Both the position numbers and the translations under genes were made by a program. The notes under the pieces are model-generated. The model saw nothing but the letters and a program-made list of their open reading frames with translations. It made no database searches and had not been told where the DNA came from. Positions 2,047 to 58,391 of a stretch of 64,000 nt of DNA are shown here, piece by piece. The DNA lies in the NCBI GenBank assembly GCA_964016885.1, contig OZ024742.1, positions 260,586,001-260,650,000 on the forward strand. Direction: 5' to 3'. This stretch comes from Eledone cirrhosa (lineage: Eukaryota). How positions within the stretch are numbered: position 1 is the stretch's first letter; each line of letters opens with the position of its first letter.

Positions 2047-2190
2047 CGAAACAGCGAGTTGGTTTGAAATTATTAGAAATGTAAGCTATCGCCGTATTTT
2101 GACTAAAGAAATTATTTAGCCTGATAGTGGGGTTAAGAACCCTCGGAGAAATGGAAAAAGATGAGTATTGACGTATATACGTCAATACTC
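2045..2190. mobile_element. Half of a palindromic MITE-like repeat
   Basis: Resembles the left arm of the 19225-19432 fold-back and ends in the perfect palindrome gagtattgacgtat|atacgtcaatactc (2163-2190). Confidence 0.65.
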
Positions 2191-2198
2191 GTGTCAAG

Positions 2199-3511
2199 GT
2201 GAGAACACACCTCAGATCATTGACACTGACGGTGGCGATGACGAAGAATGGGGTTGTTCCGAAGGACTGGCGTAGCAGCATCATCGTTAACTGTTACAAG
2301 GGTAAAGGAGACGCCCTAGAATGGAGTAACTATGGAGGCATTAAATTAATCGACCAGGTCATGAAGGTCACGGAAAAAGTAATAGCGCAACTAATCAGAG
2401 AGAGAATTGATCTAGATGAAATCCAGTTCGGGTTTGTGTCAGGCAAAAGTACCACAGACGCTCTTTTCATTGTACGACAACTACAGGAGAAGTACCTAGC
2501 TAAAAGTAAACCCCTATACTTAGCTTTTGTCGACTTGGAGAAAGCCTTCGACAGAGTCCCCCGTTCCATTATCTGGTGGGCTCTTAGAAAACTAGGTGTT
2601 GACGAATGGCTTGTGATAGCCATACAAGCCATGTATAAAGAAACAGTCAGCAAGGTTAGAATTAACAACGAATATAGTGAAGAGTTTAGCGTAAAAGTTG
2701 GTGTCCATCAGGGCTCTGTTCTTAACCCCCTACTATTTATTATTATAAACGAACTAAGGAAAAAATTAGAAATAAGAGGGATCAGATGTTGTTTACTCGA
2801 GAGAAGGCTACGTTGGTATGGTCACGTGATGCGCATGAAAGACGACAGCTGTATAACAAAGTGCAGGGCAATAAAGATAGATGGTAGCCACAGAGTAGGC
2901 AGACCCAGAAAAACCTGGGACGAGCTGATAAATTCCGACCTCACACACTTACACCTCTCCAAGACAATGTCACTGGACCGAGACCTTTGGCGGTACTCAG
3001 TAACAGATAAGACCCGCCTTACCTAAATACAAAGTAAAACCTACTAGTCAGTAGGCATCTCTAACAAAATACACCCCCGTCCCACCCCATCCACACCGCC
3101 CCCTTCAATGCAAAGTTATGTTGGTGCCACAACATCCAGGCCGAAACAAACGAGATCGTGTAGGTGTCACGACAAAAAAAATACAGTCCACGCTGTAATG
3201 TGACCATGTAGGCAACACAGTAAAAACCTCCCAGCCCCACACTGTAAATGTGGTTGGTATTAGGAAGGGCATCCAGCTGTAGAAAACACACCAGACAGTC
3301 CACGCTGTAATGTGGCCGTGTAGGCAACACGGTAAAAACCTCCCAGCCCCACACTGTAAATGTGGTTGGTGTTAGGAAGGGCATCCAGCTGTAGAAAACC
3401 CGCCAGACAGTCCTATGCGAGCAAGACAACCGCTCTTGCCTCAAGTGGGAAAAACCCCGTCCAAACCCATGCAAGCGTGGAACAGGGATGTTAAACGATG
3501 ATGATGATGAT
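2199..3511 (+). mobile_element. RTE LINE copy, 5'-truncated and internally deleted
   Basis: ORF 2199-3026 has RT motifs (YKGKGD, QFGF, AFVDLEKAFDRV, GVHQGSVL) fused in frame to ERRLRWYGHVMRM; YADD region absent; 3' UTR and (GAT)n tail. Confidence 0.92.
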
Positions 3512-3580
3512 ATATTCACACACACATATATATATATACACACACACATATATATACACACACATATATATATACATATA

Positions 3581-5704
3581 TGTTTTGCAACGTGAGGACC
3601 AGAAACAGGAGGTATTCAAGATTGCGAGGCAGTGTGTCAGAGATAGTTGTGATGTCATTGGAGAGCAGTGTATCCGGAATGATAAAGGTGTGCTTGCCCT
3701 CACAAGTGCTGAGAAGAAAGATGCATGGAAGAGTCATTATGATAGATTACTAAATGAGGAGAATGCATGGGAAGAAGAGACCCTACCCCAAGTAGACCCT
3801 ATAGAGGGACCAGCAGTACAAGTCAGCAGCAGCGTAGTAAGTAAGGCAATCAAAGATATGAAGATGGGGAAGGCAACCGGTCCATCGGGTATAGCTGCCG
3901 AGATGCTGAAGGCATCTGGGTCTGTAGGTCACACTATAACCACACGTATTGTTAACCAAGTAATACTAGAAGGTGCCATACCAAAAGATTGGTGCAGTAG
4001 CATCATTGTCAACTGCTACAAAGGTAAAGGTGATGCACTAGATAGAGGAAACTATAGAGGTTTAAAGTTGATGGACCAGGTCATGAAAGTAACAGAAAGA
4101 GTTATAGCACAGTTGATTAGGGACCGGGTGAAAATAGACGAGATGCAATTTGGGTTTGTACCAGGAAGAGGCACCACTGATGCCCTCTTCCTTGTGAGAC
4201 AATTACAGGAAAAGTACCTAGCTAAAAGTAAGCCACTCTACTTGGCATTTGTTGACCTTGAGAAAGCCTTTGACAGAGTTCCACGTGCTGTAATCTGCTG
4301 GGCTCTTAGAAAACTAGGAATAGATGAATGGCTTGTGAAAGCGGTACAAGCCATGTATAGGGGAGCAGTCAGCAAAGTTAGGAATTTAGCGTACAGGTTG
4401 GTGTCCACCAGGGCTCTGTTCTTAGCCCTCTCCTGTTCATCATAGTCCTGCAGGCAATAACGGAGGAGTTTAAGACCGGATGCCCATGGGAACTCCTGTA
4501 TGCTGATGACCTCGCACTCATAGCTGAATCTATGGTAGAACTAGAGAATAAATTCCAAACTTGGAAGCAGGGACTAGAAAGAAAGGGTCTCAAAGTCAAC
4601 ATGACAAAGACTAAGGTCCTTGTAAGTAGACGAGAAAACAGAACCCAGATCCCCTCAGGGAAATGGCCTTGCTCAGTATGTAGGAAAGGTGTAGGTAGGA
4701 ACTCCATTCTCTGCCCCAAATGCAAACAATGGGTACACAAGAGATGTAGCAGGATCTCAGGAAGCTTAATTAAGAATGTAGGCTTCACATACAACAGCTG
4801 TGCTGAGACAGCAAACAGCCACAGGAAACAAGTACCACCAATCTCTGGGAGGGCTCTGTAGAAACAGTAGACAGCTTCTGCTACCTAGGTGACCGAATTA
4901 GCAGCGGAGGTGGAGGGTAAGAACGGGATGAAAGAAGTTTAGGGAACTACTACCACTGCTAGCTGCAAAAGGTTTCTCCCTCAGAATGAAAAGCAGACTG
5001 TATGATGCGTGTATCCGAACAGCAATGTTGCATGGTAGTGAGACCTGGGCACTGAAGGTGGAAGACTTACGTAGATTAGAGAGAAACGAAGCCTGCATGC
5101 TCCGATGGATGTGTAACAGTAATATACATGAACGACAAAGCATAAATGAATTGAGAGAAAGACTGAGCATAAGAGGAATCAAATGCTGTGTGCAGGAGAG
5201 GCGGTTGCGCTGGTATGGACATGTGATGCGTATGAAGTGTGACAGCTGAATAAAAAGGTGCAGAGCACTAGAAGTTGATGGAAACCGCGGAGTGGGGAGA
5301 CCCAAGATGACCTGGGATGAGGTGATAAAAGCCGACCTTACCCAATTACACCTCTCAAAGGCAATGACACATGACCGTGACTTCTGGCGTCACGCAGTAA
5401 TACAGAGTACCCGACCTCCCATGGGTACAAGCTGAAGCATATAGACAATATGCCCCCACACCTCCCACCGCAAGGTGGTCGTGGAGGTGCCACGGCAAAA
5501 AAGCACCCAGCCCACACTGTAAAGTGGACGTGTAGGCGCCACGAAAAAGCACCCAGCACTCACTGTAAATGAGGTTGGTGTTAGGAAGGGCATCCAGCTG
5601 TAGAAATCAAGCCAAATCAGTTCCTGTATGAGCAAGGCATGGTCAGCCGTCTAACCCATGCTAGCGTGGAAGAACGGACGTAAAACGGTGATGATGATGA
5701 TGAT
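3581..5704 (+). mobile_element. RTE LINE (family A), 5'-truncated, disrupted ORF2
   Basis: RT motifs including LYADDL (~4496-4513), Cys-rich insert (CSVCRKGV..CPKCKQWVHKRC), RLRWYGHVMR, repeated 3' UTR module, (GAT)n tail. Confidence 0.95.
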
Positions 5705-5806
5705 ACACACACACACACATATATATACATATATATACACACACACACATATATATATATATACATATATACACACATATATATATATATATATACACAC
5801 ATACAC

Positions 5807-5848
<42 letters not shown>

Positions 5849-5899
5849 ACACACACACATATATATATATACATATATATACATATATATATATATATA

Positions 5900-8496
5900 T
5901 ACAACTTTTATAAGCAACCGCAATGACAGAGGACGGAGACATCATTATGCTAGCAGGGGACTTCAATGGGCATGTTGGACAGCTCCAGGATGGATACACT
6001 GGGGTACATGGTGGGCACGGTTATGGCTCAAGAAATGAAGAAGGAGTGAGACTTCTTGAATTTTGTGATGCAGGTACACTGACTATTTGCAACACAAACT
6101 TCCAGAAACCTGCCAATCACCTAATAACCTACAAATCTAGCGAGCACATAAGCCAGATTGACTTCTTACTAGTTAGGCAGTGGGACAGGCAGATAGTGTC
6201 TAATACCAAGGCATACTCTGGGGAAGAATGTACGCCACAGCATAGGTTAGTCGTTAGTGATATCTCAGTAAGCAAGAGATGGAATGAGACATACAGGAAG
6301 GTGTGGAGAAGAAAGGTCTGGAAGCTAAAAGACCTTTCACTGAAATACAAATTTAGGAAAGCCCTTCAAGATGTATATGACGAAAAAGAAGACGATTTAG
6401 AGACGTATGACATAGATAATAACTGGAATTTCTTACGTGACAACTTGCTGCAGGCTACTGATGAAACTTGTGGCTGAAGCAGAGCTCCAACCAGACAGAG
6501 AGTGACCTGGTGGTGGAACAGCACAGTAGATAAGGCCATTAGAGACAAAAGACTAGCATGGAAGGCTTGAAAAAAGGGTGGGAGTAGGAAAGAATATACA
6601 GCCGCTAAGAGAGGAGCTAGACGTCAGGTGTACTTAGCACACAGGGAGGTGGAGAGTAGGATTGACACATTGCAAGGCAGTGTGTCAATGCAAATCAGGA
6701 TGTTGTTGGAGATAAATGTGTCCAGGATGATGCCGGTGTACTTAGTGTCACGAATGATCAGAAAAATGAGGCCTAGAAATGTTATTATGAGAGACTGATG
6801 AATGTGGAGAACGATTGGGAGAGAGAGAAATTACCCTTAGTAGATCCGACAGAGGGACCAGCTATTGACGAATATAGGGTCCAAGAGGCGATTAAGGAAA
6901 TGAAAAATGGTAAGGCTGCTGGACCATGGGGAATAGTTGCTGAGATGCTGAAGGCATCAGGGGACGTAGGCACTAAACTGGTTGCACATATCATCAATCA
7001 GGCTATATATGGTGGTGTCATACCCAAAGACTGGTGCAGCAGTATTCTCATAAATTGCTCCTCTGGAGAGGAGCAATTATAGGGGTATAAAACTGATGAA
7101 TCAGGTTATGAAAGTGGCAGAAAGGATATTAGAAAGATGAGATGCAGTTTGGTTTTGTGCCTGGGAAGAGTACAACAGATGCCCTCTTCTTGATGAGACA
7201 ATTGCAAGAGAGGTTCTAAGAGAAAAATAAGCCACTATACTTAGCCTTTGTTGACCTAGAGAAGGCCTTTGATAGGGTACTCCGATCTGTCATCTGGTGG
7301 TCCCTAAGGAAGCTAGGTGTTGAGGAATGGCTTGTGAGGACAGTGCAAACTTTGTACAGAGGTACTCTCAGTAAAGTGAGGGTAGGAATGGAGTTTAGTG
7401 AGGAATTCCAGATACAAGTAGGAGTACATCAAGGTTCGGTCCTCAGCCTGCTCTTGTTCATTTTAGTCCTCCAAGCCATAACAGAGGAGTTTAAGACTGG
7501 CTGTCCATGGGAACTTCTCTATGCTGACAATCTGGTTCTTATAGCAGAATCAGTAGAGGAGCTAGAGAATAAATTCTGGCTATGGAAACAGCAGTTGGAA
7601 GCAAGAGGAATGAGAGTGAACCTAGCTAAGACAAAAGTGTTGAGTAGAAAAGAGGACAAAACTCTGATTCCATCAGGGAAATGGCCATGTTCGATATGCA
7701 GAAAATGAACTGGCATAAATTCTGTAAAATGCACACAATGCAGATCCTGGGTACATAAGAGATGTAGCGGGATAGCAGGCAAACTAACAGGTAGGAAGAA
7801 ATATGTATGCAGTAGATGTACAGGGAAATTAGACAGTAGAAGTCGCATTGATAGACACATTTTTCAAATGCATAGAGCACTATAGAAGTGGTGGATAGCT
7901 TCCGGTACCTAGATCAGATTAGCATGGGAGGAGGGTGTTCCGAGGCCATAGTATCTAGAATAAGGATGGGTTGGAAGAAGTTTAGGGAGCTGCTTCCTCT
8001 GCTGACGAAGAAGGGTTTCTCCCTGCATACGAAAGGCCAGTTGTATGATGCCTGTGTGAGGAGCGTGATGCTGCATGGTAGTGAGACATGGGCAGCAACT
8101 GCAGAGGATATGCGACAGCTGGAGAGAAATGAGGCAAGCATGCTCCATTGTATGTGCAGTGTAAATGTGCGTGAACGACCCAGCATGAATTTCTTGAGAG
8201 AGAAACTGTGTCCGAGAGGGATAGAATATAGTGTACGGGAGAGGAGACTGAGATGGTATGGACATGTGATGCGCATGGAGGATGACCGATGGGTGAAGAA
8301 GTGCCAGGAAATGCCAGTTGAAGGAAGACGTGGTAGAGGTAGACCATGAAAAACATGGGCGGAGGAGGTGAGAATAGACCTCAGATCGTTGAAGCTCATG
8401 GAGATGACAAAGGACCATGACGAGTGGAGAGATGCTGTGCTGAATAAGACCCGTCCCACCCTTGCAAGCAGGGAAAAGCAGGCGTAAAATGATGAT
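5900..8496 (+). mobile_element. RTE LINE (family B) with APE endonuclease and RT, degenerate
   Basis: GDFNGHVG, RNEEG, QIDFLL and QHRLVV endonuclease motifs; RT LYADNL; many stops/frameshifts; very short 3' UTR ending cccttgcaagcaggg...(GAT)n. Confidence 0.95.
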
Positions 8497-18169: not shown

Positions 18170-18620
18170 AGATACATGTAGTTATTTGCCAATAGCATAT
18201 GCAAATGTGCTCAATACTTGTGCCTGCAGTGTTAAATATTGGAAGTGTTAATATCTAGTGGGCGAGAGTATAAGCAGAGTGGATACACGTGAAGAAGTAT
18301 ATAAAGGAGAACAAACTGTTAAAACAGCACCTACGTACGTTTCGCCCGAAAGGGCTTTTAGTGTTCTGTCAGACCCAGGAGCGCTACAGGCTTCTCAAGG
18401 GCATAAAAAACTAAAGTGTTCCTTACGTGACCCAGAAGGGGTTTTAAAGAAGAATGAACTGTGATGTGAATTTATCTTTAAAACCCCTTCTGGGTCACAT
18501 AAGGAACACTCTTTAGTTTTTTTATGCCCTTGAGAAGCCCTTTCGAGAGAAACGTACGTAGGTGCTGTTTTAAATAAAGATGTTTTAACAGTTTGTTCTC
18601 CTTTATATACTTCTTCACGT
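18170..18620. mobile_element. Penelope-like terminus with inverted repeat (18287-18620) and hammerhead motifs
   Basis: Arms of ~140-165 bp around a ~30 nt spacer; TTGAGAA-GCC..-GAAAC-GTAC-GTA core in each arm; tattgagcac motif in the extension. Confidence 0.7.
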
Positions 18621-19432: not shown

Positions 19433-19924
19433 ATACTGTTTTTAATTTTTCAAGGTTGAATTCCATATTGAAAAGTTTCAATGACACAAATCCAAACCTT
19501 ATCAATAGACTTTTATTTCAATCAATAATGTATCATATTTTTTATTATTATCAATACTTCCATTTTGGAGTATTTGTCTGGCAGGTGATTTTGTCTAAAA
19601 CATTCTGTTGACACTGAAATAATTCTATCGTATTTGTCATTTTTGCCATTTAAATGCTTTCTTACCATACTTCTTTTGAAACACACGGCCTATAATTTTT
19701 AGATATTTTTGAAAATAATATAAAATTTGGATGAATTTTAGAATATAATTTAACTTTCTCATTAACTGGTGTTTGGAGTATAACTTAACAAAGGTTCTTA
19801 CATAAAATTATGTTAGGTTTTTAGATAAATATAAACACTTTAAAACAAACAGCTTCTTATGCATACACATAAATATAAAATAAAACAAGGACGAGTGGTT
19901 ACTCCTTCATTACGTTTATTGGTT

Positions 19925-20010
19925 GGTGACGCGCGTTTCACCACTGATCAGGTCAACGTTCGATCTGTATCGATCTAGCCCAACTCTGTAATACACGGCT
20001 TGTCAGACCC
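19925..20010 (-). ncRNA. Minimal hammerhead-ribozyme-like motif with long stem-II insert (Penelope-like terminus)
   Basis: Minus strand: ggt-CTGACAA-gccg[~52 nt]tggt-GAAAC-GCGC-GTC-acc, followed by AATAAA. Confidence 0.65.
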
Positions 20011-20126
20011 CTTTTAATGGTAATGAAAAAATGATTATTTATATATATATATATATATATAAATATATATAAATGTGTTATGGTCCATCTGGTTCCTTAC
20101 CAAACTTCCTTCGTTATATATATATA

Positions 20127-20720
20127 CTAGCAGTGGTACCCGGCGTTGCACGGGATAAGGTATTTTGGAACGCGGGCCGCCAACAGACCTAATCATGGAA
20201 AAACTGCATGCCTGGACAATATGTAAAGAAAATAAACCGAATACTGTGATGGCTGGATAATCTTTAAGATTTTCCTTGATGAAGCAGGAAAAATGCAGGT
20301 TTTCACCTAATGCGGGCCCTAGGGGATCAAGAAAATAAATTTTTTTTTATGTGCATAATATGCCTTGAAATTTCGGGAAAATCGGCTAGGCGTAACGCCT
20401 CAAAAAAGCCCTGAAAAAATGTTTTTCACCTAATGCAACCCTAGGCCATAAAAAAGTTGGATTTTCTTTGCTCACGGTATGAAGAGACCAACTAATACAT
20501 AGTTACAATTTCAAGGAAATCGGTCTGACGTAACACCTCAAAAAACCCCTAAAAACCTGAAAAAACGCAGTTTTTCACCTAATGCGGCCCCTAGGGGATC
20601 AAAAAGTTGAATTTTTTATGTGCATAACACTCCCTGAAACATAATACACATGTAAAGTTTGAAAAAAGTCGGTTGGGTACTTCTCGAGTTTTAGGGATTC
20701 AGACATCCTCAGTTTTATAA

Positions 20721-31059: not shown

Positions 31060-32362
31060 GCTAAGTGCTACCGGAATTTGATAGCACTTGTTTCCTGTGG
31101 TCATTTGCTATTTACTGTCCCATACAGCAGCTAGATGTAAAACCTATATTCTTAGCTAAACTTCCTAAGATCCCGCTACATATCTTGTGCACCCATAATT
31201 TGTATTTGGGACAGAGGATGGAATTTCTACCATTATCTTTCCTACACACTGAGCAAGGTCATTTCCCTGAGGGGATTAGAGTTCTGTTTTCTCTTCTACT
31301 TACTAGGACCTTAGTTTTTGTCAGGTTGACTTTAAGACCCCTTGTTTCTAGGCCCTGCTTCTATGTTTGGAATTTCTTCTCTAGTTACACCATAGACTCC
31401 GCTATGAGTGTAAGATCATCCATGTGCAGGAGTTCCCATGGACAACCGGTCTTAAACTCCTCTGTTATAGCCTGCAGAATGATAATAAACAGGAGAGGGC
31501 TAAAAATAGATCCCTAGTGGACGCAACCTGCATGCTAAATTCTTTGCTATAGTCATTGTTAATCCTGACTTTGCTGACTGTTCCCCTGTACCTAGCTTGT
31601 ACAGCCTTCACAAGCCACTTATCTACTCCTAGTTTTCTAAGAGCCCACCAGATTATGGCACAGGGCACTCTGTCAAAAGCTTTCTCCAGATCAACAAATT
31701 CCAGGTAGAGCAGCTTACTTTTAGCTAGGTACTTTTCCTGTAGCTGCTTCACCAGGAAAAGTGCATCTGTGGTGCTTTTGCCTGGTACAAATCAAAACTG
31801 CATCTCATCTAGATTTACCCGGTCCCTAATCAGCTGTGCTATAACTCTTCCTGTTACTTTCATGACCTGGTCCATCAACTTGATGCCTCTATAGTTTCCT
31901 CTATCTGGTGCATCTCCTTTACTCTTGTAGCAGTTGACAATGATACTGCTGCGCCAATCATTCAGTATGAAACCATTTAATATTACTTGGTTTACAATAT
32001 GTGTGGTTGAGGTGTGACTTACCAACCCAGATGCTTTCAGCATTTCAGTAACTATTCCCGATGGACTGACTGCTTTCCCGGTCTTCATATCCTTAATTGC
32101 TTTACTTACAACACTGCTGCTGACTTGTATGGCTGGGCCCTCCATAGGGTCCACTTGGGGTAGGCTCTCTTTTTCCCATGCATTCTCCTCATTCAGTAAT
32201 TTATCATGACTCTTCCATGCAGCTTTCTTTTTGGCACCTGTGAGGGCATATGCACTTTTATCATCTCAGACACACTCTCACCAGTGAAATTACAATTTTC
32301 TCTAATGCACTGCCTCACAATCCTGAACACCTCATGTTTCTGGTCTTCACGCTGCAAAACAT
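31060..32362 (-). mobile_element. RTE family A internal fragment
   Basis: Reverse complement closely follows 3581-4850 (DPMEGPAIQV, VDLEKAFDRV). Confidence 0.92.
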
Positions 32363-38097: not shown

Positions 38098-41000
38098 CGT
38101 TTACGTGATGGTGTCACGCTAAAAACACAGGTGGTGATGTAACCATAAATTCACTAATCCTCGATATGAGTGTTTAAATGTCGAACCTAAACAGTTCGAA
38201 TAACAGTGAAAAGGAGACTGGAACGTCATGTGAAAGACTCTTACCCAGCAAGTGCTCCCTGGCCCAGCAGCAGGGACCTGGCTGTCATCCAAATACTGCT
38301 GGTGTTGGAGGAGGAAGGAATGGGACAAGAACCAACTGGACGAAAGAATTGAATAGAACTGTCATGAAATGTTACCTGAAAAGTAACCCCAAAGAAAAAG
38401 GCTATAGAAAACGGATGCATAACATCTGGAACAAGATTGGTCTATTTAAATTAGATGAACAAAAATTGGCCGGACAGGCTCGGGTAATAAGAACTAATGG
38501 ATGGATTAGTGAGTTGGAACTGGAGGAACTGAGCAGAGAGATTGAGTTGGAAATGGAGAATGGAGTATATCAGGCAAATGAGCCAGTGGGAAATGAAGGT
38601 GAAGAAGTTGAGAGAACTGAGGAAGCAACCGAAGCAGACAATGATCTGAATGCTGAAATAAATAATATCTGGAACAAAGATACGGCCATTGAGGAAATGA
38701 AAGCTGACGGGCTAGGGCAAGATTTGGTTGATATTCTAACCTTAGTGGTAGATGAAATGAACAATGATAGTGGAAAGCCTATGAACCTAAGATTTGTAGA
38801 CAGGAAAAATTTAAAAGAAACAACAGCTACGGTAAAAAAGGTCATCCCATACAACACAAGAAAGATCAGAACCTTGGTGGAAGAAACAACTGAATGGTCA
38901 AATCAAGGAAATGAGAAAAGACATTGGAAAGCTTGAGTCTTTACTGAATGGGACATTACAAAACATAGACACTAAAGATAGATTGAAAATAAAATACAAA
39001 ACTAGGGGAAAAGAGCTAAATGTTATCATAGAGGAACTGAAGCAACACATTGTAACAAAAAGTGCAAAGATTAGGCGGTATGAGAGCAGAGTCAGTCAGT
39101 ATAGACAGAACCGCATGTTTGACAACAACAACAAGATGTTGTTTGGACAGCTTGAAGGGAAAGAAAGAGGTAACGACATGATCCCTGAGGCTGAACAGAC
39201 TAAGACATTCTGGAGAGGAATATGGGAGCAGGATATTGAACATAATAGTCAGGCAGTGTTGATTGAGACAGTTCAAAAGGAGATTAGTGAACAAGCACAT
39301 CAACAGCCTGATTTGAGTATCACAGTTGAAACTCTTAAAGAGCAGGCCAAAAAACTAACCAACTGGAAATCACCAAGCCCTGATGGTGTGCAAGGGTATT
39401 GGATAAAAAATACAACATCCCTCCACCCAAAACTGACAGCCATGTTCAATGACTGCTTGATGTCGGGTGAAGTCCCAGAGTGGTTGACAAAAGGTACCAC
39501 AGTTCTGGTAATGAAAGACCGAATCAAGGGTAATGATGTTACCAACTATAGGCTTATCACATGTCTGTCCGTAATGTGGAAACTGTTAACAAGCATTGTC
39601 TCTGAGGAAATCTATCATCACCTCCACATAAACAATTTGTTACCTGACGAACAGAAAGGATGCCGAAACAAGTCCTGTGGTACAAAAGACCAGTTGCTTA
39701 TTGATAAGATGGTAATGAAGAATTGCAAGAGGAGGTATACTGGTCTTGCAATGGGATTATAAAAAGGCATTCGACATGGTACCTCATTCTTGGATAACCA
39801 AAAGCCTAGAAATCTTCAAGGTGGAAGACAACATCAGACAGCTATTAAGTAAAAGTATGAAGTCCTGGGAAACAGAGCTAACATCAGTTGGAGAATCCTT
39901 GGGAGGCATGAAGATCAAGAGAGGTATCTTCCAGGGAGATAGTTTGTCTCCTTTGTTGTTTGCCCTTATCCTGATACCCCTGTCCGTCATATTGTGAAAA
40001 GTGAGAGCAGAATACAAGCTGGGAAGAGGAGAGCTTACCATCAACCACCTCCTTTTCATGGACGATCTTAAACTCTTTGGGAAGAGTGAGAAGGAATTGG
40101 ATGTGCTTGTTGACACTGTCAGTATTTTCAGCAATGATATATGTATGGAATTTGGTGTTAATAAGTGTGGAGTCCTAGTGATGAAGAGGGGTAAATTCAG
40201 CAGAAGCAATGGAATCCGGATACCCACAGGTGAGATGATAAAGGAAATTGACACTGAAGAGGGATACAAATATTTAGGTGTTCTGGAGGCAGATGACATC
40301 AAGAACAAAAAAAATGAAGGAATTGATAAGATCTGAATACATAAGGAGAGTAAAGAACATACTAAAATCACATCTAAATAGTAGGAATGTCATAAGTGCA
40401 GTAAATTCCTGAGTTGTGTCTATTATTAGGTACAGTGCGGGAATTCTGAAATGGAATGTTGCTGAACAAAAAGAAATGGATAGGAAGACTAGGAAGCAAA
40501 TGACTATCTACAACATGTTCCACAAAAGGAGTGATGTTGACAGACTCTACTTAAAGAGATCTGAAGGTGGAAGAGGTCTTATCAGCATAGAGGACTGTGT
40601 TCAGATGGAGAAAAACAGTCTGCACAAATATGTGGCTGGCAGTAGGGAGCCAATGCTCAGAATTGTACTGAAGAAGACAATAGACCAGGGAATGTCCAAG
40701 GAGGAAATAACAAAGAGGAAGAGCAACCTTCATGAAAAATCCCTTCATAGTACCTTCTTTAAGAAAACGGAATTCAGAGATCCACAGACATGGAACTGGT
40801 TAAAAAGAAGAAACCTTAAAAAAGCTGCAGAAGGAATGCTAATGGTTGCGCAAGAACAACCCTTAGAATGAAGTGGGTGAAACACCATATTGACAAGGAG
40901 GAGGTTAGCTCACTGTGTAGGATCTGTGGAGAGAGAGAGAGAGAGAGAGAGGAGACTGTGGCTCACATTGTATCCGAGTGTAAACACCTAGCCCAGACTC

Positions 41001-41978
41001 ACTATAAAGGCTGGAGACATGATGTGATGGGCAGGGTGATCCACTGGTACCTATGCAAACTAAACAGTTTACCACATTCTGAGAAGTGGTATGAACATGA
41101 GCGAGAGTCGGTGATAGAAAACGATCAAGTGAAGGTGCTGTGGGATTTTAGGATACAGACGGACAAGAAATTAGAACACAATAGGCCTGACCTGGTGGTT
41201 TTCGACAAAGAAAAAAGATTGTGCCTGATTGTAGATGTAGCCTGTCCATTTGACACGAGAGTGCAAGAAAAGGAGAGGGAGAAAATTAAGCGATACCAGG
41301 ATTTAAAGTGGGAGTTAAAAAGGATTTGGAACTGCCATGAGATCAAGGTCGTCCCGATTGTCATAGGCGCACTAGGTACTATCATCATCATCATCATTTT
41401 ACGTCCGCTTTTCCCTGCTTGCAAGGGTGGGACGGGAACTGATTTTGGCTTGATTTCTACAGCTGGATGCCCTTCCTAACACTAACCTCATTTACAGTGA
41501 GTGCTGGGTGCTTTTTTTCCGTGGCGCCTACACGTCCACTTTACAGTGAGTGCTGGGTGCTTTTTTGCCATGGCACCGCCACGACCACTTTGCAGTGGAA
41601 TGATAGGGACCTCTAGTCCTATCATCTCATTTCTACAGCTGAGTAAACTGGAGCAATGTGAAATAAAGTGTCTTGCTCAAGGAAAAACACATCACCCGGT
41701 CTGAGAATTGAACTCATAACCTTTCGATTGCAAGCCCAATGCTCTAACCACTAAGCCATGTGCCTCCATTATCTCAAAGAGTTTCCAAGGATGGTTAAAG
41801 AAACCCCGTTTTTTGGAACACTTCAAAAGGCATGCTTGCTGGGAACAGCAAGAACCTTCCGATACGTCCTGAATGTTTGAGGCTGCAGGTAGTGGCTTGA
41901 TATTCATTTCAACAAACTTTCCAGTTAAATAATATCAATGACTGAGACTCAAAGAATAATAATAATAATAATAATAAT
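38098..41978 (+). mobile_element. R4/Dong-clade non-LTR retrotransposon, near full length, disrupted
   Basis: N-terminal WTKELN..VMKCY..GYRKRM..W..EQKL..Q.RVI; RT WKSPSPDGV, GIFQGDSLSPL, LFMDDLKL, YKYLG; CRIC..H..C knuckle, RHD, RPDLVV..VDVACP..KY endonuclease; QKACLLGTAR end after the SINE; (TAA)n tail. Confidence 0.92.
41381..41768 (-). mobile_element. Full-length tRNA-head SINE with RTE-derived tail, inserted in the R4 ORF
   Basis: Minus strand: A box tggcttagtgg, B box gagttcaattc, central ccttgagcaagacac domain, RTE UTR module, stem-loop, (GAT)n; the host frame ALGT|ISKS resumes after it. Confidence 0.9.
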
Positions 41979-42421: not shown

Positions 42422-42548
42422 AGCTATTTCGGCACTGAAAACTGAGATCTGATCAAAAAAAAAAAAAAACTTTCTCGAAAACAAAGCTACTGGAAAACCA
42501 GAGAGGAGTCTGTTGTTTTTTTTATTACATACTGCAAGACAAATTAGG

Positions 42549-43292
42549 ATGGTGATGAGACTACAAACGAGCGAAGCGATTAGGGCATTTACTGGTGAAG
42601 GCGATGTTGTCGCTTGGCTGCGAAAAGTCCAGCTGGTCGCAAGCTTACAGAAGATTGAAGATGTGGCTGGCCTCATGGCACTGTACCTCGAGGGGCACGC
42701 GTTGGTACTCTTCCTTGAAATGGATGAACACAGCCAAAGGGATGCGCAAAAGATCGAGAGGCGCATGATCGAAGCGTTCGCGGAGGAACCATTAACCGCT
42801 TTTGCTAAGCTGGCAAGAATTAGATGGAACGGTGAACGCGTTGACATTTTCGCAGCGGAAATACGGCGACTAGCCATGTTGGCTGGATATCAGGCAGAAT
42901 GCGAATGCACGGTGCGGTTGGCGTTCATAAATAGATTTTCAGACGACATAGTGGTGAAACTACAGCAAGTCCCAGGTTACAAAGAAATGGAGATGCATGC
43001 ACTTGTGGAGCAAGCCCACATCATAGCAGAAGATGCCAAGAAGAGTGTCGCGGTGATGGCAACTACAGAGGCCCAAGACAGCTGGCAGCGAAATGGTGAA
43101 AGGGAGGCAACCTCGGCACGCGGTCGCCCGCGAACGTTTAGAGGCCGCTGTTTTAGGTGCCAGGGCCCGCACATGGCGAGAGACTGTAGAGAGTCAAGGC
43201 CGGAAATAATATGCTACCGGTGTAAGCGACCAGGCTACATCGCTACTAACTGCGACCAGGGAAACGATCCGGTAGTTGCCCCTTATGAGTAG
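42549..43292 (+). CDS. gag: Gag with two zinc knuckles
   Basis: Open frame with CFRCQGPHMARDC and CYRCKRPGYIATNC; start codon uncertain. Confidence 0.85.
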   Translation: MVMRLQTSEAIRAFTGEGDVVAWLRKVQLVASLQKIEDVAGLMALYLEGHALVLFLEMDEHSQRDAQKIERRMIEAFAEEPLTAFAKLARIRWNGERVDIFAAEIRRLAMLAGYQAECECTVRLAFINRFSDDIVVKLQQVPGYKEMEMHALVEQAHIIAEDAKKSVAVMATTEAQDSWQRNGEREATSARGRPRTFRGRCFRCQGPHMARDCRESRPEIICYRCKRPGYIATNCDQGNDPVVAPYE

Positions 43293-46038
43293 AGGCGCTG
43301 CCCATGGTGGAAGTCTTCGTGAGGGGAAAGCCACAGCGAGCCCTTGTGGACACGGGCTGTACGACGACACTCGTGATCGCGGGGGTGGCGCAGTGGTGGA
43401 GAGGGAAGAGCAGCGTAAGGGCAGTCGACGGTAGGAAAATTGAATGCCAAGGTCGCAGCGAGGTGGAAATAGCGGTACGGGGAAGGAAAATAAGGCTTTC
43501 TGCCATCGTAGTCAACGTGGTGGATGGGATCGGCGTGGTTATGGGCATGGACAGAATTGGCCGTCTAGGAGGCGTCACAGTGAACAACGTCGGTGTGTCG
43601 TTTGACGGCACTGCATTGGTATGCGCAATGAGTACGCGACAGGAGAACCAGAAGGCCCATGAGGAGAAATACCCCGCTTACACTGTGCAGGACAAAGACT
43701 TCAAGGCCGTGTTCGATGGGCAGCGATGGGTTGTTGAGTGGTACTGGAAGGGAGAACCACCAACACTGAAGACCAAAGTGGGCTGCTATCAACACACATT
43801 GAAGGGAGACATTAGGAGCAAGTTCGGGCGAGAGGTAGAGAGATGGATTGAGGAGGGCATACTGCTTCCCTGGAAAGAGGAGGTGAAGTGCAGAGTATTG
43901 CCGTTAATGGCGGTGGCGCACCCACAAAGAACAAGGTGAAGCTGGTACTGGACTTTCGGGAGCTGAACGAACACATGTCATGCCACACGGGTGGTGAAGT
44001 CACGGATCTCTGTGGGGAAACCCTGCGTGAGTGGAGACGCATGACAGGGGGGTTCCACAATCGTAGATCTAAAGTCGGCATACTTGCAATTGCATATAGA
44101 TGAGAAGCTCTGGCAGTATTAGCTGGACAAGTATAAGGGCTGGACATATTGCCTGACCAGGCTCGGTTTCGGGCTGAGCTCTGCACCAAAGATCATGGCG
44201 GCGGTCCTCAAGACCATTCTGGGAAAGGCCAACAAGATGAAGAGGGCCACTAATTCCTACATTGACGACATCCTAGTGGACGAGTCTGTAGTGTTGGCGG
44301 CGGAGGTCACAAGCCATTTACAGGGGTATGGACTGGCTGCGATGTCGTCAGAAGCGTTGGAGGGAGGAACCGCGCTGGGACTTAGGCTACGGCGAGACAG
44401 GACGGGTGTCTTAGTATTCCAGAGGGGAAATGAAGTTCCAGAACTGGACCCAAGTATGAGTAGGCAGGAGCTTTTCTCGGTGTGTGGAAAGTTGGTGGGT
44501 CACTACCCGATTGCTGGGTGGCTCCGGACGGCATGCAACTATGTCAAGAGACGAGCGGGAGGGGTGACTTGGAGTGACAGAGTGGGAGAGAGGACAGTGG
44601 CCATGATACAGGAGATCGTGGAGAGGTTGAAGGCCGATGACCCAGTACGGGGACGCTGGTATGTTCCCAAATCGCAGAGCGGGACCATATGGTGGATGCA
44701 GCCTGGCTTAGGAAGAAGGACGACTGCAACCACATCAATGTGGCTGAACTGGACGCGGTGTTGAGAGGGGTGAACCTCGCCCTGAGGTGGGGACTGCGCA
44801 CCATCGAGATATGCACCGACTTGGCTACTGTACTCGGATGGGTGAGATCAGTGCTCACCAGTGAGAAGAGAATGCGAACGAGAGGGGCGGCGGAGATGCT
44901 GATAAAGCGCCGCCTGGGAACTTTAGGAGAGCTGGCCACCGAGTTCGACCTGAGGCTGAGCGTAGTTTTCATGCCCTCAGAGAAAAATAGGGCAGACGTC
45001 TTAACCAGGGTGAAGAAAGCCTGGATGGAAGCGCCAGAGGATGTAGAAGAGGAGATAGCTGCCGTGTGTCGGCTGACCGAGTCGGATCTGAAAGGGTTGC
45101 ATGACATGCACCACATGGGAGTGGATAAGACTCTGTTCCTATCCAGGAGAATCGACTCGGACGTTAACAGACACAGTGTTCAAAGAGTGGTTAGAGGCTG
45201 CGTCCGATGTCAGTCCATTGATCCCGCCCCGGTTGTGCACGAAACGGGAAGTCTCCCGGTGGATCGCGACGGGAAGCGATTGGCGGTGGATGTAACACAC
45301 TACCGACAGGAAACGTACCACTCGATGGTCTACTGTGGACCGGGACGGATGGCGATATGGAGGGAGATGAAGACTGGAACGGCCGAGGAAATCATGCGGA
45401 CGTTGAGAGAGGTGTTCTTGGAGCGGTGCCCTGTGGACGAACTGCTGATGGACAACAGCGCAGCATTCCACTCGGAGGCGCTGAGGGAGATGCTCGATGG
45501 ATGGAAGGTGGACTGTTTCTTCAGAGCAGCGTACAGGCCGAGCGGGAATGGAATCGTGGCGCGACACCACCGGACGATCAAAGCAATGGCGGAGCGGGGC
45601 CACATCTCACCAATAGAGGCAGTGTTCTGGTACAACATGTCCCCTCGGGTAGGACAGGTTGAGGAATCAGTGCCACACAGAGCAGTATTCAGATATGAGT
45701 GGCGGCACCCGTGCACGCCACCACAACGGCCAGTGGGGAGAGAGAATGCATTTGTGCAGGTGGGCGAAGAAGTCTGGGTTAAGCCCCCAGATGCACGTTG
45801 CACATCTCAATGGGGAAGGGGAACGGTGACGGCCGTAAATTCCCAGAACAATGTGTTCGTGGACGGAGTACCACGTCATGTCCTGGATGTCCGTAGAATT
45901 ACTGTGTCAACGGACTCCGAGGAAGAGGAAACCCAAAGTGCCGCCCCAACACTGCGGAGATCGCAAAGAAGTCACAAACCAGCAACCTGGACAGCAGACT
46001 TTCATATGCAGAAGGACGAGGGGGAAATTGATCCTTGA
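43265..46038 (+). pseudogene. pol: Pol (protease, RT, RNase H, integrase) with stops, frameshifts and a deletion
   Basis: LVDTGC, LDFRELN, DLKSAY, YIDD, HINVAEL..TD, NRADVL, HHCC, AVD..MDN..GIVA(E>A)R; -1 frame relative to gag. Confidence 0.9.
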
Positions 46039-46850: not shown

Positions 46851-47836
46851 ATCATCATCATCATCATCATCATCATCATTTTACGTCCGCTCTTCGCTGC
46901 TCGCAAGGGTGGGACGGGTCTTATTCAGCACAGCATCTCTCCACTTGTCACGGTCCTTTGTCATCTCCACCGTGAGCTTCAACAATCTGAGGTCTGTTCT
47001 CACCACCTCCACCCATGTTTTTCATGGTCTACCTCTACCATGTCTTCCTTCAACTGGCATTTCCTGGCACTTCTTCACCCATCGGTCATCCTCCATGCAC
47101 ATCACATGTCCATACCACCTCAGTCTCCTCTCCCGTACACTACATTCTATCCCTCTCAGACACAGTTTCTCTCTCAATGCATTCATGCTGGGTCGTTCAC
47201 GCACATTTACACTGCACATCCAACGGAGCATGCTTGCCTCATTTCTCTCCAGCCGTCGCATATCCTCTGCGGTCTCTGCCCATGTCTCACTACCATGCAG
47301 CATCGCGCTCCTCATACAGGCATCATACAACCGGCCTTTCGTACGCAGGGAGAAACCCTTCTTCATCAGCAGAGGAAGCAGCTCCCTAAACTTCTTCCAA
47401 CCCGTCCTTATTCTAGATACTATGGCCTCGGAACACCCACCTCCCATGCTAATCTGATCTTCTAGGTACCGGAAGCTATCCACCACTTCTATAGCGCTCT
47501 CCTGCATTTTAAAAATGTGTCTATCAATGCGACTTCTACTGTCTAATTTCCCTGTACATCTACTACATACATATTTCTCCCTACCTGTTACTTTGCCTGC
47601 TATCCCGCTACATCTCTTGTGTACCCAGGATCTGCATTGTGTGCATTTTATCGAATTTATGCCAGTTCCTTTTCTGCATATCGAACATGGCCATTCCCCT
47701 GATGGAATCAAAGTTTTGTCCTCTTTTCTACTCATCAACACTTTTGTCTTAGCTAGGTTCACTCTCAGTCCTCTTGCTTCCAACTGCTGTTTCCATAGCC
47801 AGAATTTATTCTCTAGCTCCTCTACTGATTCTGCAA
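46851..47836 (-). mobile_element. RTE family B 3' fragment, young-looking
   Basis: Long open frame 47022-47836 nearly matching 7540-8349; (GAT)n tail at 46851-46879. Confidence 0.95.
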
Positions 47837-47939
47837 TAAAGAATATATAAATACAAATATGATTGAGATGTCCATGAGGATGTTTGTGAGGAGTTAAGTA
47901 ATGATTATGATGTTTTACTATGGATATAACAGTCCTGTT

Positions 47940-48772
<833 letters not shown>

Positions 48773-56395: not shown

Positions 56396-57418
56396 CTAAT
56401 GGTACCATCCTCATGTCCTCTTTCCTACTTTTAGGACTTTCGTCTTTTATAAGTTTAGTTTTGGGCCTTTCAACTCAAGGTTCTTCCATGTTTGAAATTT
56501 GTTCTAACTTTCCTATGGATTCAGCTCTAAGGACTAGGTCAACAGCATATATGAGCTCCCACAACCCTCACAAGCCATTCATCTACAACTAGCTGCCTAA
56601 GTGCCCACAGGATTACACAGCGTTGGACCCAGTCAAAGGCCTTCTCCCTATCAACATAGATACAGTGGCTTACTCTAAGCTAAGTACCTCTCTTGTAGTT
56701 ATCTCACTATAAAGAAAACATGAAATAAAATATATTTCTTGGAAACTAGATTAACCAGAGTTTAAATGAAGTGAGAAAATAAAAATGAAGCGATAAAAGA
56801 AAACAGGATCTTGCACGGAGCATGAATGGTGTAGATTAAGTAGAAATGTAAATATGAAAGAAAATTATTTTCCATACAAGGGATGTGTAAAATATATGAG
56901 GGCTACTGAGAGATGTCCAGATTGAGCAGAATTTTGAACTACTTCTTACAAAATATTTCTATTTTCGGCACTACAACGCTATTAGCTGTCAGTCCAGTGG
57001 AAAACAGGCGAAGGTGACGTCACTCGTAAAACATCGTTTATTTCCGTATTACTACCACGCGTAAGTGGAGTTTTCACGCGTTTTTTTGAGAGAGAGAGAG
57101 AGAGAGAGGGAAGACTTAAAAGGGCCAAATTAGAAAACAAATAGAAAACAAGTCATGGTTATAAAGCACATCGATGTAAGTGGAGTTACTTAAATGAAAA
57201 TATAGGTGGCCCTTAAAAGGGCCAAATTAGAAAACAAGTCATGGTTATCAATGTAGAAAACAAGTCATTCATAAATTTAAGTTTTATAATAAAATTTTTT
57301 TCACCAACAAATATGACAGCTAATAGCGTTGAAGTGCCCGCAATTCTGTATCTTTACGTATATTGCGTATACGAGGGTTGACAAAGATACTCTCATAGAA
57401 TCTTTACGTATATTGCGT

Positions 57419-57700: not shown

Positions 57701-58391
57701 CACATTTCGTCGACTTCAATACATTTTATTACATTTTATTGTATTGTAAACATTAACTTTTATGGAAATCTTATTACAAAATTTCAATTTAGTTCGATTT
57801 TTTGGAATTTATTTAACAAACATGGAAAAATAAGAAAAAGAATAAAATAAAAAATAATTTGATTGCCTTTAATAAAGAAGATAAACAGAGTGGAACTGAT
57901 TTCCAGGTCATACTAATGAAACAAGGTTTTTTCCATTACTGATATTATCTGTCTGCCGCAAGTCCTGGTAGAAGATGCTACACGAACTAAAGTATTTTAC
58001 TGAACGACGCAACATGCTGCTGGATCGAAGAAACGAGCCCATGACTTTATAATGGTTAGTCCAGTACTGTAACCCCTAAGGCATGTGCCTTCACAGAGGA
58101 AAGGTAAATCATATTATAACAGATTAGATGGGTACTATGTTAGATATTACTATGTGTCATATTATACCAGAGGAAGTGTGCTGTATAATAAACATTGATA
58201 TCAGGTTGATTCAATAACTACCCAGTCCCAAATATGAACCCATGAACTTATGGTCGTCAGTCAAACACTTTAACCATTGTATGTATGTATGTATACACGT
58301 ATGGATGGATGGATGTATGTATGTGTGTATACATGTATGTATGGATGTATGCATGTATGTAAACATGTATATATGTAAGTATGTATGCGTG

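What the first reader, a model, noticed from the sequence alone, without database searches (positions are those of the whole stretch)
19912..20012. Second hammerhead with extended, branched stem II
Seen on minus: ggt/acc stem I, CTGACAA (one change from CTGACGA, at a CpG), stem II gccg/tggt enclosing ~52 nt with small palindromes (tgtattaca, gatc..gatc, ctgatcag), GAAAC-GCGC-GTC with palindromic stem III and GUC triplet, then AATAAA. Unrelated in sequence to the 18326 motif yet the same enlarged architecture, so long-stem-II minimal hammerheads may be a recurring class that short-stem search patterns miss.
Basis: partly seen in the sequence, partly recalled or inferred. Interest (0 to 1): 0.7.

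Follow-up and report, generated by a model that had tools for sequence, protein, structure and literature searches.

The report
Long-armed Penelope hammerhead, core eroding
This is a broken copy of a self-cutting-RNA (hammerhead) motif at the end of a jumping gene; across thousands of copies one arm is a long paired hairpin that standard searches miss, and the youngest copies carry a changed cutting core, so the jumping gene likely spreads without efficient cutting.

Summary
The motif is real. It is a 5'-truncated, decayed copy (G8A and C11.1U) of the terminal-repeat hammerhead of a Hydra-clade Penelope-like retroelement with at least 3,800 copies. An 861-aa RT-endonuclease frame and a hammerhead-ORF-hammerhead tandem exist elsewhere in the genome. 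The family has G8 (26 of 28 copies) and a 60-nt helix II domain. Its 8-9-bp base shows compensatory changes between subfamilies; published Hydra-clade values are 12-26 nt. The domain is one unbranched rod. The 18326 motif is not a second case: its family has a 12-13-nt helix II, and that copy carries a private 36-nt insertion. The generalisation still holds: a long-arm pattern with other stem III palindromes gives 283 matches against 2 in the control. New here: the youngest, ORF-linked subfamily has the core CCGUCGA (U4C plus A6U) and keeps the arm. Cleavage and expression are untested, and copy 5' ends show no clear peak at the cut site. A 53-nt arm is published for a spike-moss PLE. The scan noted long-armed Hydra hammerheads before, in this and other genomes, and once an eroding core.

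The parts
19865..20040 (-). 5'-truncated copy of the 3' pseudo-LTR of a Hydra-clade Penelope-like element (subfamily A); 5' end abuts (TA)n
   Evidence: homology ends cluster at about 20037-20043 and 19863-19876
20007..20009 (-). helix I, 5' strand (GGU)
20000..20006 (-). core C3-A9, here CUGACAA (G8A at 20001; family CUGACGA)
   Evidence: G in 26 of 28 other copies
19991..19999 (-). basal helix II, 5' arm (9 nt; 19993 is a near-private change)
19949..19990 (-). distal helix II rod (CAG/CUG, UCGGG/CUUGA, GAUC/GAUC helices in the family; partly decayed here at 19982, 19957, 19952)
19940..19948 (-). basal helix II, 3' arm; C11.1 changed to U at 19940
   Evidence: C in 27 of 28 other copies
19929..19939 (-). 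GAAA core plus palindromic helix III (ACGCGCGU)
   Evidence: self-duplex -14.7 kcal/mol
19928..19928 (-). C17; predicted cleavage 3' of this base (GUC)
   Evidence: hammerhead numbering
19925..19927 (-). helix I, 3' strand (ACC)
19915..19920 (-). AATAAA, kept 3' of the cut site in subfamilies A-E; polyadenylation role untested
18353..18388 (-). private 36-nt insertion in the 18326 hammerhead copy (not part of this family; listed because the finding relies on it)

Best explanation
The motif is a decayed, 5'-truncated copy of the terminal-repeat hammerhead of a Hydra-clade Penelope-like retroelement, and this copy is likely inactive. SHOWN: it belongs to a dispersed family of at least 3,800 copies whose long members carry an RT plus GIY-YIG frame; in a tandem the hammerhead sits about 200 nt upstream of the next start codon; the 60-nt helix II domain folds as one rod whose 8-9-bp base covaries between subfamilies; the youngest subfamily has the core CCGUCGA. 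INFERRED: in canonical-core subfamilies (A, C, E) the RNA would cut after GUC/GUA only as a dimer through the palindromic helix III or with help from the element's protein, trimming tandem transcripts. The basal stem is selected to stay paired; the tip is tolerated payload. Most insertions are copied from uncut RNA, so cutting is not required for spreading, and the latest burst came from a lineage whose core is predicted to be weak or dead while the arm was kept.
For: Family and core: 305 exact canonical-core copies, control 0; 174 + 3,647 copies of a 25-nt motif at the cut site. ORF link: L188 861-aa frame; L189 hammerheads at 6869 and 2060 flanking a 660-aa RT-EN frame; 357-bp pLTR; start codon 198 nt after C17, counted from the printed sequence. 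Clade motifs match Hydra. Inverted 5'-truncated partners and (TA)n flanks. Covariation: 20 cells changed on both sides vs 8.3 in shuffles, 1/500; 3 basal pairs; 5 families, 35 of 40 basal pairs vs 29.4 mean, reached by 1 of 120 arm permutations; 9 groups, 57 of 72 vs 47.8, 59 of 20,000. Helix III stays palindromic while changing from GCGC to AATT. Tip dispensable: 20 of 36 subfamily-B copies have 50-51 nt. Core erosion: 1,400 CCGWYGA matches; 74 of the first 100 listed are CCGU, counted by eye; U at position 6 in 29 of 29 D copies; divergence D2 0.028, n=12, vs A 0.075, n=17, p=0.013. Monomer hammerhead fold lies 8-12 kcal/mol above the MFE in 4 of 4 natural copies. Anolis PLE: ribozyme mutants still insert and cleavage needs the protein (PMC11167929). 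U4C and A6C lower activity (PMC3088659).
Against: No cleavage or expression data. RNAalifold on 29 copies did not recover the basal stem and found no pair with change on both sides. In one search two of five measures did not beat the shuffles, and the distal helices show no double changes. Folding z-scores of A-E domains are modest, -0.9 to -2.0; the window copy has z -0.26. The order CUGA to CCGA to CCGU is nested inside A in the tree that includes the core letters, but the tree without them has an unresolved root (25/35). A vs D1 divergence is not different (p=0.18). I found no measurement of A6U or of the double change. Pfam did not name the ORF, so the clade call rests on motifs read by eye.
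Confidence: 0.72

Rival explanations
1. The long arm is a functional handle: the element's RT-EN protein (or a host protein) binds it, and that is why it is kept while the catalytic core erodes.
For: The arm keeps 60 nt and 8 of 9 basal pairs in D although the core is changed. GAGUCGGG and GAGCUGAUC recur in A-E. The Anolis PLE ribozyme is protein-assisted. The same idea stands in scan notes e1-9903353 and e1-10342994 (not independent evidence).
Against: D is young and derived from A-like copies, so retention may only reflect short time. The CAG/CUG helix is broken in D without compensation (5 of 28 rows unpaired at that pair). The 10-nt tip is lost in over half of B. Families F, G, H have other arm sequences.
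Confidence: 0.35
2. CCGUCGA is a working core variant: the long helix II or the protein makes up for U4C and A6U, so the youngest lineage still cuts in vivo.
For: G5, G8, A9, GAAA, GUC, helix I and the palindrome are all kept in D (G8 in 29 of 29). U4C viroid variants stay infectious and A6C keeps low activity.
Against: Two changes hit the CUGA turn together (structure recalled, not from a call). Among 90 loci with a non-C base at position 17, 5' ends at the cut site numbered 3 in D and 8 in A, although D is the larger group (49 vs 34 of 100 listed; p=0.03, weak).
Confidence: 0.25
3. The arm is a neutral insertion in loop II that was fixed once in an ancestor and inherited; only the first few base pairs matter.
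For: No double changes in the distal helices; weak folding z-scores. The published Hydra-1_oBim hammerhead has a near-identical basal stem with an 8-nt loop (compared by eye with family E).
Against: Covariation reaches pairs 5 and 6 of the stem. Families F, G, H have different sequences yet fold as long rods (z -1.5, -3.4, -6.5).
Confidence: 0.3

Closest known systems
Hammerheads of Hydra-clade Penelope-like elements, including Hydra-1_oBim (Craig et al. 2021, PMC8557442; seen: passages, section 11, supplement parts 1-2 of 59 and search hits)
   Same: Type I hammerhead in the 3' end; C-terminal EN; DKT, GLYRDD, CxCX5C, CxxC and CxH motifs; (TA)n targets; small helix III. Family E's basal stem resembles that of Hydra-1_oBim.
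   Different: Core-to-GAAA span 60 nt (39-62 in related families) against 12-26 nt in the 26 Hydra rows of File S2 (counted by eye). Unit about 4.8 kb with a 1-2.5 kb 3' UTR against 'generally under 3 kb'. The youngest lineage has CCGUCGA.
PLE min-HHRs and small-palindromic-helix-III variants (Cervera and De la Pena 2014, PMC4209133; seen: text parts 1-3 of 4, whole supplementary PDF)
   Same: pLTR location, short helix I, G10.1-C11.1, palindromic helix III, predicted dimer activity.
   Different: Their descriptor allows helix II of 3-7 bp, loop of 3-10 nt and only 2 nt between A15.1 and U16.1; this family fails both limits. No extra base after A9 in A-E.
PLE-X1_sMoe and PLE-X1_sTam hammerheads (Craig et al. 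2021 File S2, marked 'deviates from canonical structure')
   Same: PLE hammerhead with a large helix II domain (about 53 nt in sMoe): a published precedent for the size.
   Different: Plant, EN-minus, rDNA-targeting elements; single consensus rows; I saw no covariation analysis or comment on the arm.
Animal non-LTR retrozymes (bioRxiv 10.64898/2026.07.22.740005; seen: parts 1-2 of 5)
   Same: Type I hammerhead in a PLE-derived repeat; many solo copies.
   Different: This family is the 3' end of an autonomous element with variable 5' truncation, not a short head-to-tail non-coding unit.
Anolis Poseidon PAc hammerhead (Frangieh et al. 2024, PMC11167929; seen: passages and section 3 part 2 of 2)
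   Same: pLTR hammerhead near the ORF start; genomic copies span the cut site; preferred 3' ends.
   Different: PAc has a short helix II that overlaps the start codon; here the start codon is about 200 nt downstream.

Membership tests
Type I hammerhead ribozyme | Core CUGANGA and GAAA..UH | tested here: met
   Met for subfamilies A, C, E. Not met in the window copy (G8A), in most of B (U4C) or in D (U4C, A6U).
Type I hammerhead ribozyme | Three helices with G10.1-C11.1, supported by covariation | tested here: met
   helix I and basal helix II change on both sides between families; window copy has G10.1-U11.1.
Type I hammerhead ribozyme | Self-cleavage after NUH | not testable with these tools
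   No RNA run listed; contigs only.
Type I hammerhead ribozyme | Rfam Hammerhead_1 gathering score (34 bits) | tested here: not met
   13.9 bits in the window, 24.4 bits in L017, each over the last 36 nt only.
Type I hammerhead ribozyme | Loop II - helix I tertiary contact of canonical type I motifs | tested here: inconclusive
   No conserved loop-loop complement seen by eye across A-E; no formal search.
PLE min-HHR (Cervera 2014 descriptor) | Helix II 3-7 bp with 3-10-nt loop | tested here: not met
   60-nt domain vs descriptor.
PLE min-HHR (Cervera 2014 descriptor) | GAAANNUH (2 nt in helix III) | tested here: not met
   6 nt (CGCGCG); fits the paper's 'small palindromic helix III' variants instead.
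Penelope-like element, EN+ | Single ORF with RT and C-terminal GIY-YIG endonuclease | tested here: met
   L188:3514-6096, 861 aa; 50 homologues at E<=1e-3, one with a weak GIY-YIG hit. Domains read from motifs; Pfam silent on the query.
Penelope-like element, EN+ | pLTR tandem, inverted 5'-truncated partner, hammerhead in pLTR | tested here: met
   L189 tandem with 357-bp repeat; inverted partners in L004, L011, L025, L027, L030, L092.
Hydra clade | DKG changed to DKT | tested here: met
   ADKTGNLY in L188.
Hydra clade | CxCX5C linker; no CCHH; CxxC and CxH around E and N | tested here: met
   CNCKKRAEC; no Cys pair between IVY and YIG; CRLC...E...N...CRH.
Hydra clade | N-terminal RWK motif | tested here: inconclusive
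   LWRAY in L188; RWRAY read by eye in L189: K replaced by R.
Hydra clade | (TA)n insertion preference | tested here: met
   Seen in most printed flanks; not counted against a control.
Hydra clade | Placement in an RT phylogeny with reference PLEs | not tested
   Reference proteins were not available as stored sequences; compared by eye with Hydra-1_Obim blocks.
Neptune clade (first considered) | DKG, CX2-5CxxC linker and CCHH | tested here: not met
Non-LTR retrozyme | Short non-coding head-to-tail units each with a hammerhead | tested here: not met
   Homology runs upstream for more than 2 kb into the ORF.

The most novel reading that the evidence does not exclude
A radiation of Hydra-clade PLEs carries a hammerhead subtype with a 40-60-nt helix II rod that serves as a protein-binding element, and its most recent burst (on the order of a thousand or more copies) came after the catalytic core decayed in two steps to CCGUCGA: a ribozyme turned into a non-catalytic RNA handle while the element stayed mobile.
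Probability: 0.3. Interest if true: 0.7.

Novelty: new variant of a known kind. Interest (0 to 1): 0.45.

Why it matters
The role of hammerheads in Penelope-like elements is open: they are near-universal, cut poorly alone, and were dispensable in one in vitro system. This family offers a natural series in one genome (CUGACGA, CCGACGA, CCGUCGA) with an intact 861-aa frame in the most changed lineage, so cleavage rate can be set against transposition success. It also shows that published descriptors and Rfam miss thousands of PLE hammerheads in one genome. The copy in the window is itself an ordinary decayed repeat.

Tried and rejected
Branched stem II: rejected (one hairpin loop in 8 of 8 majority domains). 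18326 as a second long-arm family: rejected. Neptune clade: my first reading from motif recall, dropped. The insert as a GT..AG intron: the GT exists only in some A copies, B has TTTT and no terminal AG, and removal would leave a 1-nt loop; rejected by inspection. The insert as coding: a stop-free frame runs through it but has no start codon; not pursued. An internal CUGAUCA as the true core (the part Rfam scores, inferred from coordinates): no helix I partner; rejected. Pseudoknot of the tip loop with an upstream UGUAU: possible in A and D, absent in B and C; unsupported. 5' ends at the cut site: 14 independent ends among 90 of the 174 non-C17 loci (17 called, 3 removed as one duplicate, one keeping GCGT, one local deletion), about 0.9% of copies, against about 0.6% per base background (12 of 30 broken within 70 nt; interval 0.3-0.8%), before allowing for chance matches; no clear peak. 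Expression: no RNA holder listed; the 4 runs laid are contigs of unrecorded type; no evidence either way. Rfam E-value scan of 7 whole loci was swamped by microsatellite hits (top 150 of 237 seen). Pfam, PDB: nothing. First homologue search with the partial ORF: nothing. One search used a mis-registered structure; one search is the corrected one. In one search group L was offset by one base, which lowers the 9-group score. Family J (L221, L222) has no helix I and lies antisense to an ORF; not counted as a hammerhead. A sense-strand PLE ORF was found upstream in only 1 of 50 loci, so the PLE link of families F-K is unproven. Lunse et al. 2017 could not be read; the 2017 Terminon paper with relaxed descriptors was not read; either could hold long-arm examples.

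Full report
OBSERVATION. The minus strand reads GGT (20009-20007), CTGACAA (20006-20000), a 60-nt domain (19999-19940), GAAAC GCGC GTC (19939-19928), ACC, AACC, AATAAA. A type I scan with one core mismatch gives this single palindromic-helix-III hit in the window and none in 30 Markov resamples. Rfam finds no hammerhead at gathering level. At E-value level Hammerhead_1 scores 13.9 bits here and 24.4 bits in an intact-core relative, against a cut-off of 34, and covers only the last 36 nt.

IT IS A REPEAT COPY. The window lies in a 3.0-Gb genome. A 181-base query gave 2,025 candidates, 40 scored, with 89-94% identity in the best hits. Among 28 other distinct copies, 26 have G8 and 27 have C11.1, so the window copy carries two CpG-type lesions; it has further near-private changes at 19993, 19982, 19957 and 19952. 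An exact pattern for the canonical core with a 50-58-nt spacer matches 305 times, control 0. A 25-nt word at the cut site matches 3,647 times with C17 and 174 times without, a lower bound for subfamilies A, B and D. Copies have variable 5' ends, two preferred 3' ends, (TA)n flanks and inverted 5'-truncated partners.

THE HOST ELEMENT. Walking upstream reaches, about 1.1 kb above the hammerhead, a decayed thumb-linker-GIY-YIG frame. That protein matches 150 scored places. One has an 861-aa open frame (L188). L189 shows hammerhead-ORF-hammerhead 4.8 kb apart with a 357-bp repeat, and the start codon lies 198 nt after C17. The protein has DKT, GLYRDD, CNC-X5-C, no CCHH, and CxxC and CxH around the conserved E and N. 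These are the stated Hydra-clade features (PMC8557442 section 11), and the blocks line up by eye with Hydra-1_Obim. I first read it as Neptune and dropped that. Pfam and PDB give no name; 50 mostly unnamed homologues were found. No RT tree was built.

THE LONG HELIX II. Four subfamilies share the 60-nt length: A (window), B, C, D. Their majority domains, and those of E, F, G, H, each fold with one hairpin loop. The basal pairs change together: pair 3 is CG in A and UA in B; pair 5 is CG or UG in A, CG in D and UA in B and C; pair 6 is UA in B and CG in C; pair 2 is CG in A-D and AU in E. On 28 distinct rows, 20 cells change on both sides against 8.3 in shuffles (1/500), a control that ignores relatedness; two of five measures do not beat the shuffles. 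At family level, five families pair 35 of 40 basal positions against 29.4 when the arms are permuted; only the true pairing of 120 reaches it. Against this: RNAalifold did not recover the stem, the distal helices show no double change, and folding z-scores of A-E are only -0.9 to -2.0. The tip is dispensable: 20 of 36 B copies lack about 10 nt. Helix I also covaries, and helix III stays palindromic (GCGC in A-D, AATT in E), which fits the dimer model of PMC4209133.

RECURRENCE. A pattern for long helix II with other helix III centres gives 283 matches against 2 in the control (first 100 listed).

CORE EROSION. The ORF-linked copies read CCGUCGA. A CCGWYGA pattern matches 1,400 times; 74 of the first 100 listed are CCGU and 26 CCGA (counted by eye; the pattern is looser than that and exact matching favours young copies). 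Among 120 loci chosen only by the downstream word, 57 kept a full domain: position 6 is U in 29 of 29 D copies, 4 of 17 A and 0 of 11 B; G8 is kept in all 57 (the filter allowed 2 core mismatches). Divergence outside the core is 0.028 for D2, 0.051 for D1, 0.075 for A and 0.074 for B (A vs D2 p=0.013; A vs D1 p=0.18). A tree with the core letters nests CCGA and then CCGU inside A (bootstrap not settled); without them the root is unresolved. The direction rests mainly on CUGA being the state in C, E and published hammerheads. U4C and A6C are reported to lower activity (PMC3088659 passages); I found no A6U hammerhead data.

HOW IT LIKELY WORKS. Shown: position in the pLTR, pairing pattern, core states, relative ages. 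Inferred: a tandem transcript can be cut after H17, about 200 nt before the next ORF, only when two palindromic helices III pair (-14.7 kcal/mol) or the protein folds the RNA; the monomer fold is 8-12 kcal/mol above the MFE. Genomic copies span the cut site, and 5' ends there (about 0.9% of copies) are not clearly above background (about 0.6% per base). So uncut RNA is likely the usual template, as found for the Anolis element, where ribozyme mutants still insert (PMC11167929). That would let a core-eroded lineage keep spreading.

WHAT IS KNOWN. PLE hammerheads, dimer action and the Hydra clade are published. Published Hydra spans are 12-26 nt in 26 rows and about 11-23 nt in 56 PLE motifs, both counted by eye. 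The 2014 descriptor would miss this family on two counts. A 53-nt helix II domain is listed for PLE-X1_sMoe, so size alone has a precedent. Eight literature searches listed no paper on long-armed Hydra hammerheads or on a CCGUCGA core. Lunse 2017 was not held, the Terminon paper was not read, bioRxiv supplements are closed, and 57 of 59 parts of the Craig supplement were only searched. Other texts seen: bioRxiv 10.64898/2026.07.22.740005 parts 1-2 of 5, PMC6765202 passages. Hammerhead numbering and the CUGA-turn argument are recalled. The scan's own notes report long-armed Hydra hammerheads in this and other genomes and one eroding U4C lineage; a look-up by this sequence found nothing.

VERDICT. 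A real, decayed copy of a new variant of a known kind. Interest 0.45: the arm is well supported but has a precedent and no shown function; the core series is the part that makes an open question testable.

Noticed in passing
window 18290-18420 (-) and about 18480-18600 (+): Inverted pair of a second hammerhead family (458 candidates) with the U3-A8 core variant, 4-bp helix II, GUAC palindrome and GUA site; the minus copy has a private 36-nt insertion that resembles nearby sequence.
   Followed up: partly
window 20010-20032 (-) and the same place in A, B, C, D copies: A U-rich tract and an AG just 5' of helix I recur in all four subfamilies; the D. virilis Penelope intron ends at helix I, so this may be a 3' splice site.
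   Followed up: no
window 19944-19951 (-): The 3' arm of the basal stem contains a core-like CUGAUCA/CUGAUCG in A-E; Rfam's weak hit appears to use it. It could be a trace of a core duplication that produced the long arm.
   Followed up: partly
L188:7383-9998 (+): A second, different PLE-like frame (872 aa, DKSG and YVDD motifs) sits in the 3' UTR of the 861-aa element.
   Followed up: no
L190:8582 (-), 9500 (+), 111 (-): A short-stem hammerhead family with an AAUU palindrome lies next to D copies.
   Followed up: no
L250:1390-1525: A B copy starts exactly at the cut site and follows directly on the first codons of the ORF of the same family.
   Followed up: partly
window 19765-19855 and 20121-20700: Two other repeat families flank the finding; the first has very high depth in public contigs.
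   Followed up: no
window 42453-46038 (+): Gag-protease-RT-integrase-like frames of an LTR retrotransposon, in pieces (labels from recalled motifs).
   Followed up: no
window 2172-8349, 31065-32265, 38178-41479, 47022-47957, 58363-60378: Many fragments of LINE-like reverse transcriptases; the window is mostly repeat (labels recalled).
   Followed up: no
window 57184-57228 (-) and 41701-41758 (-): Rfam histone 3' stem-loop at its gathering score, and a partial tRNA-like match, perhaps a SINE head.
   Followed up: no
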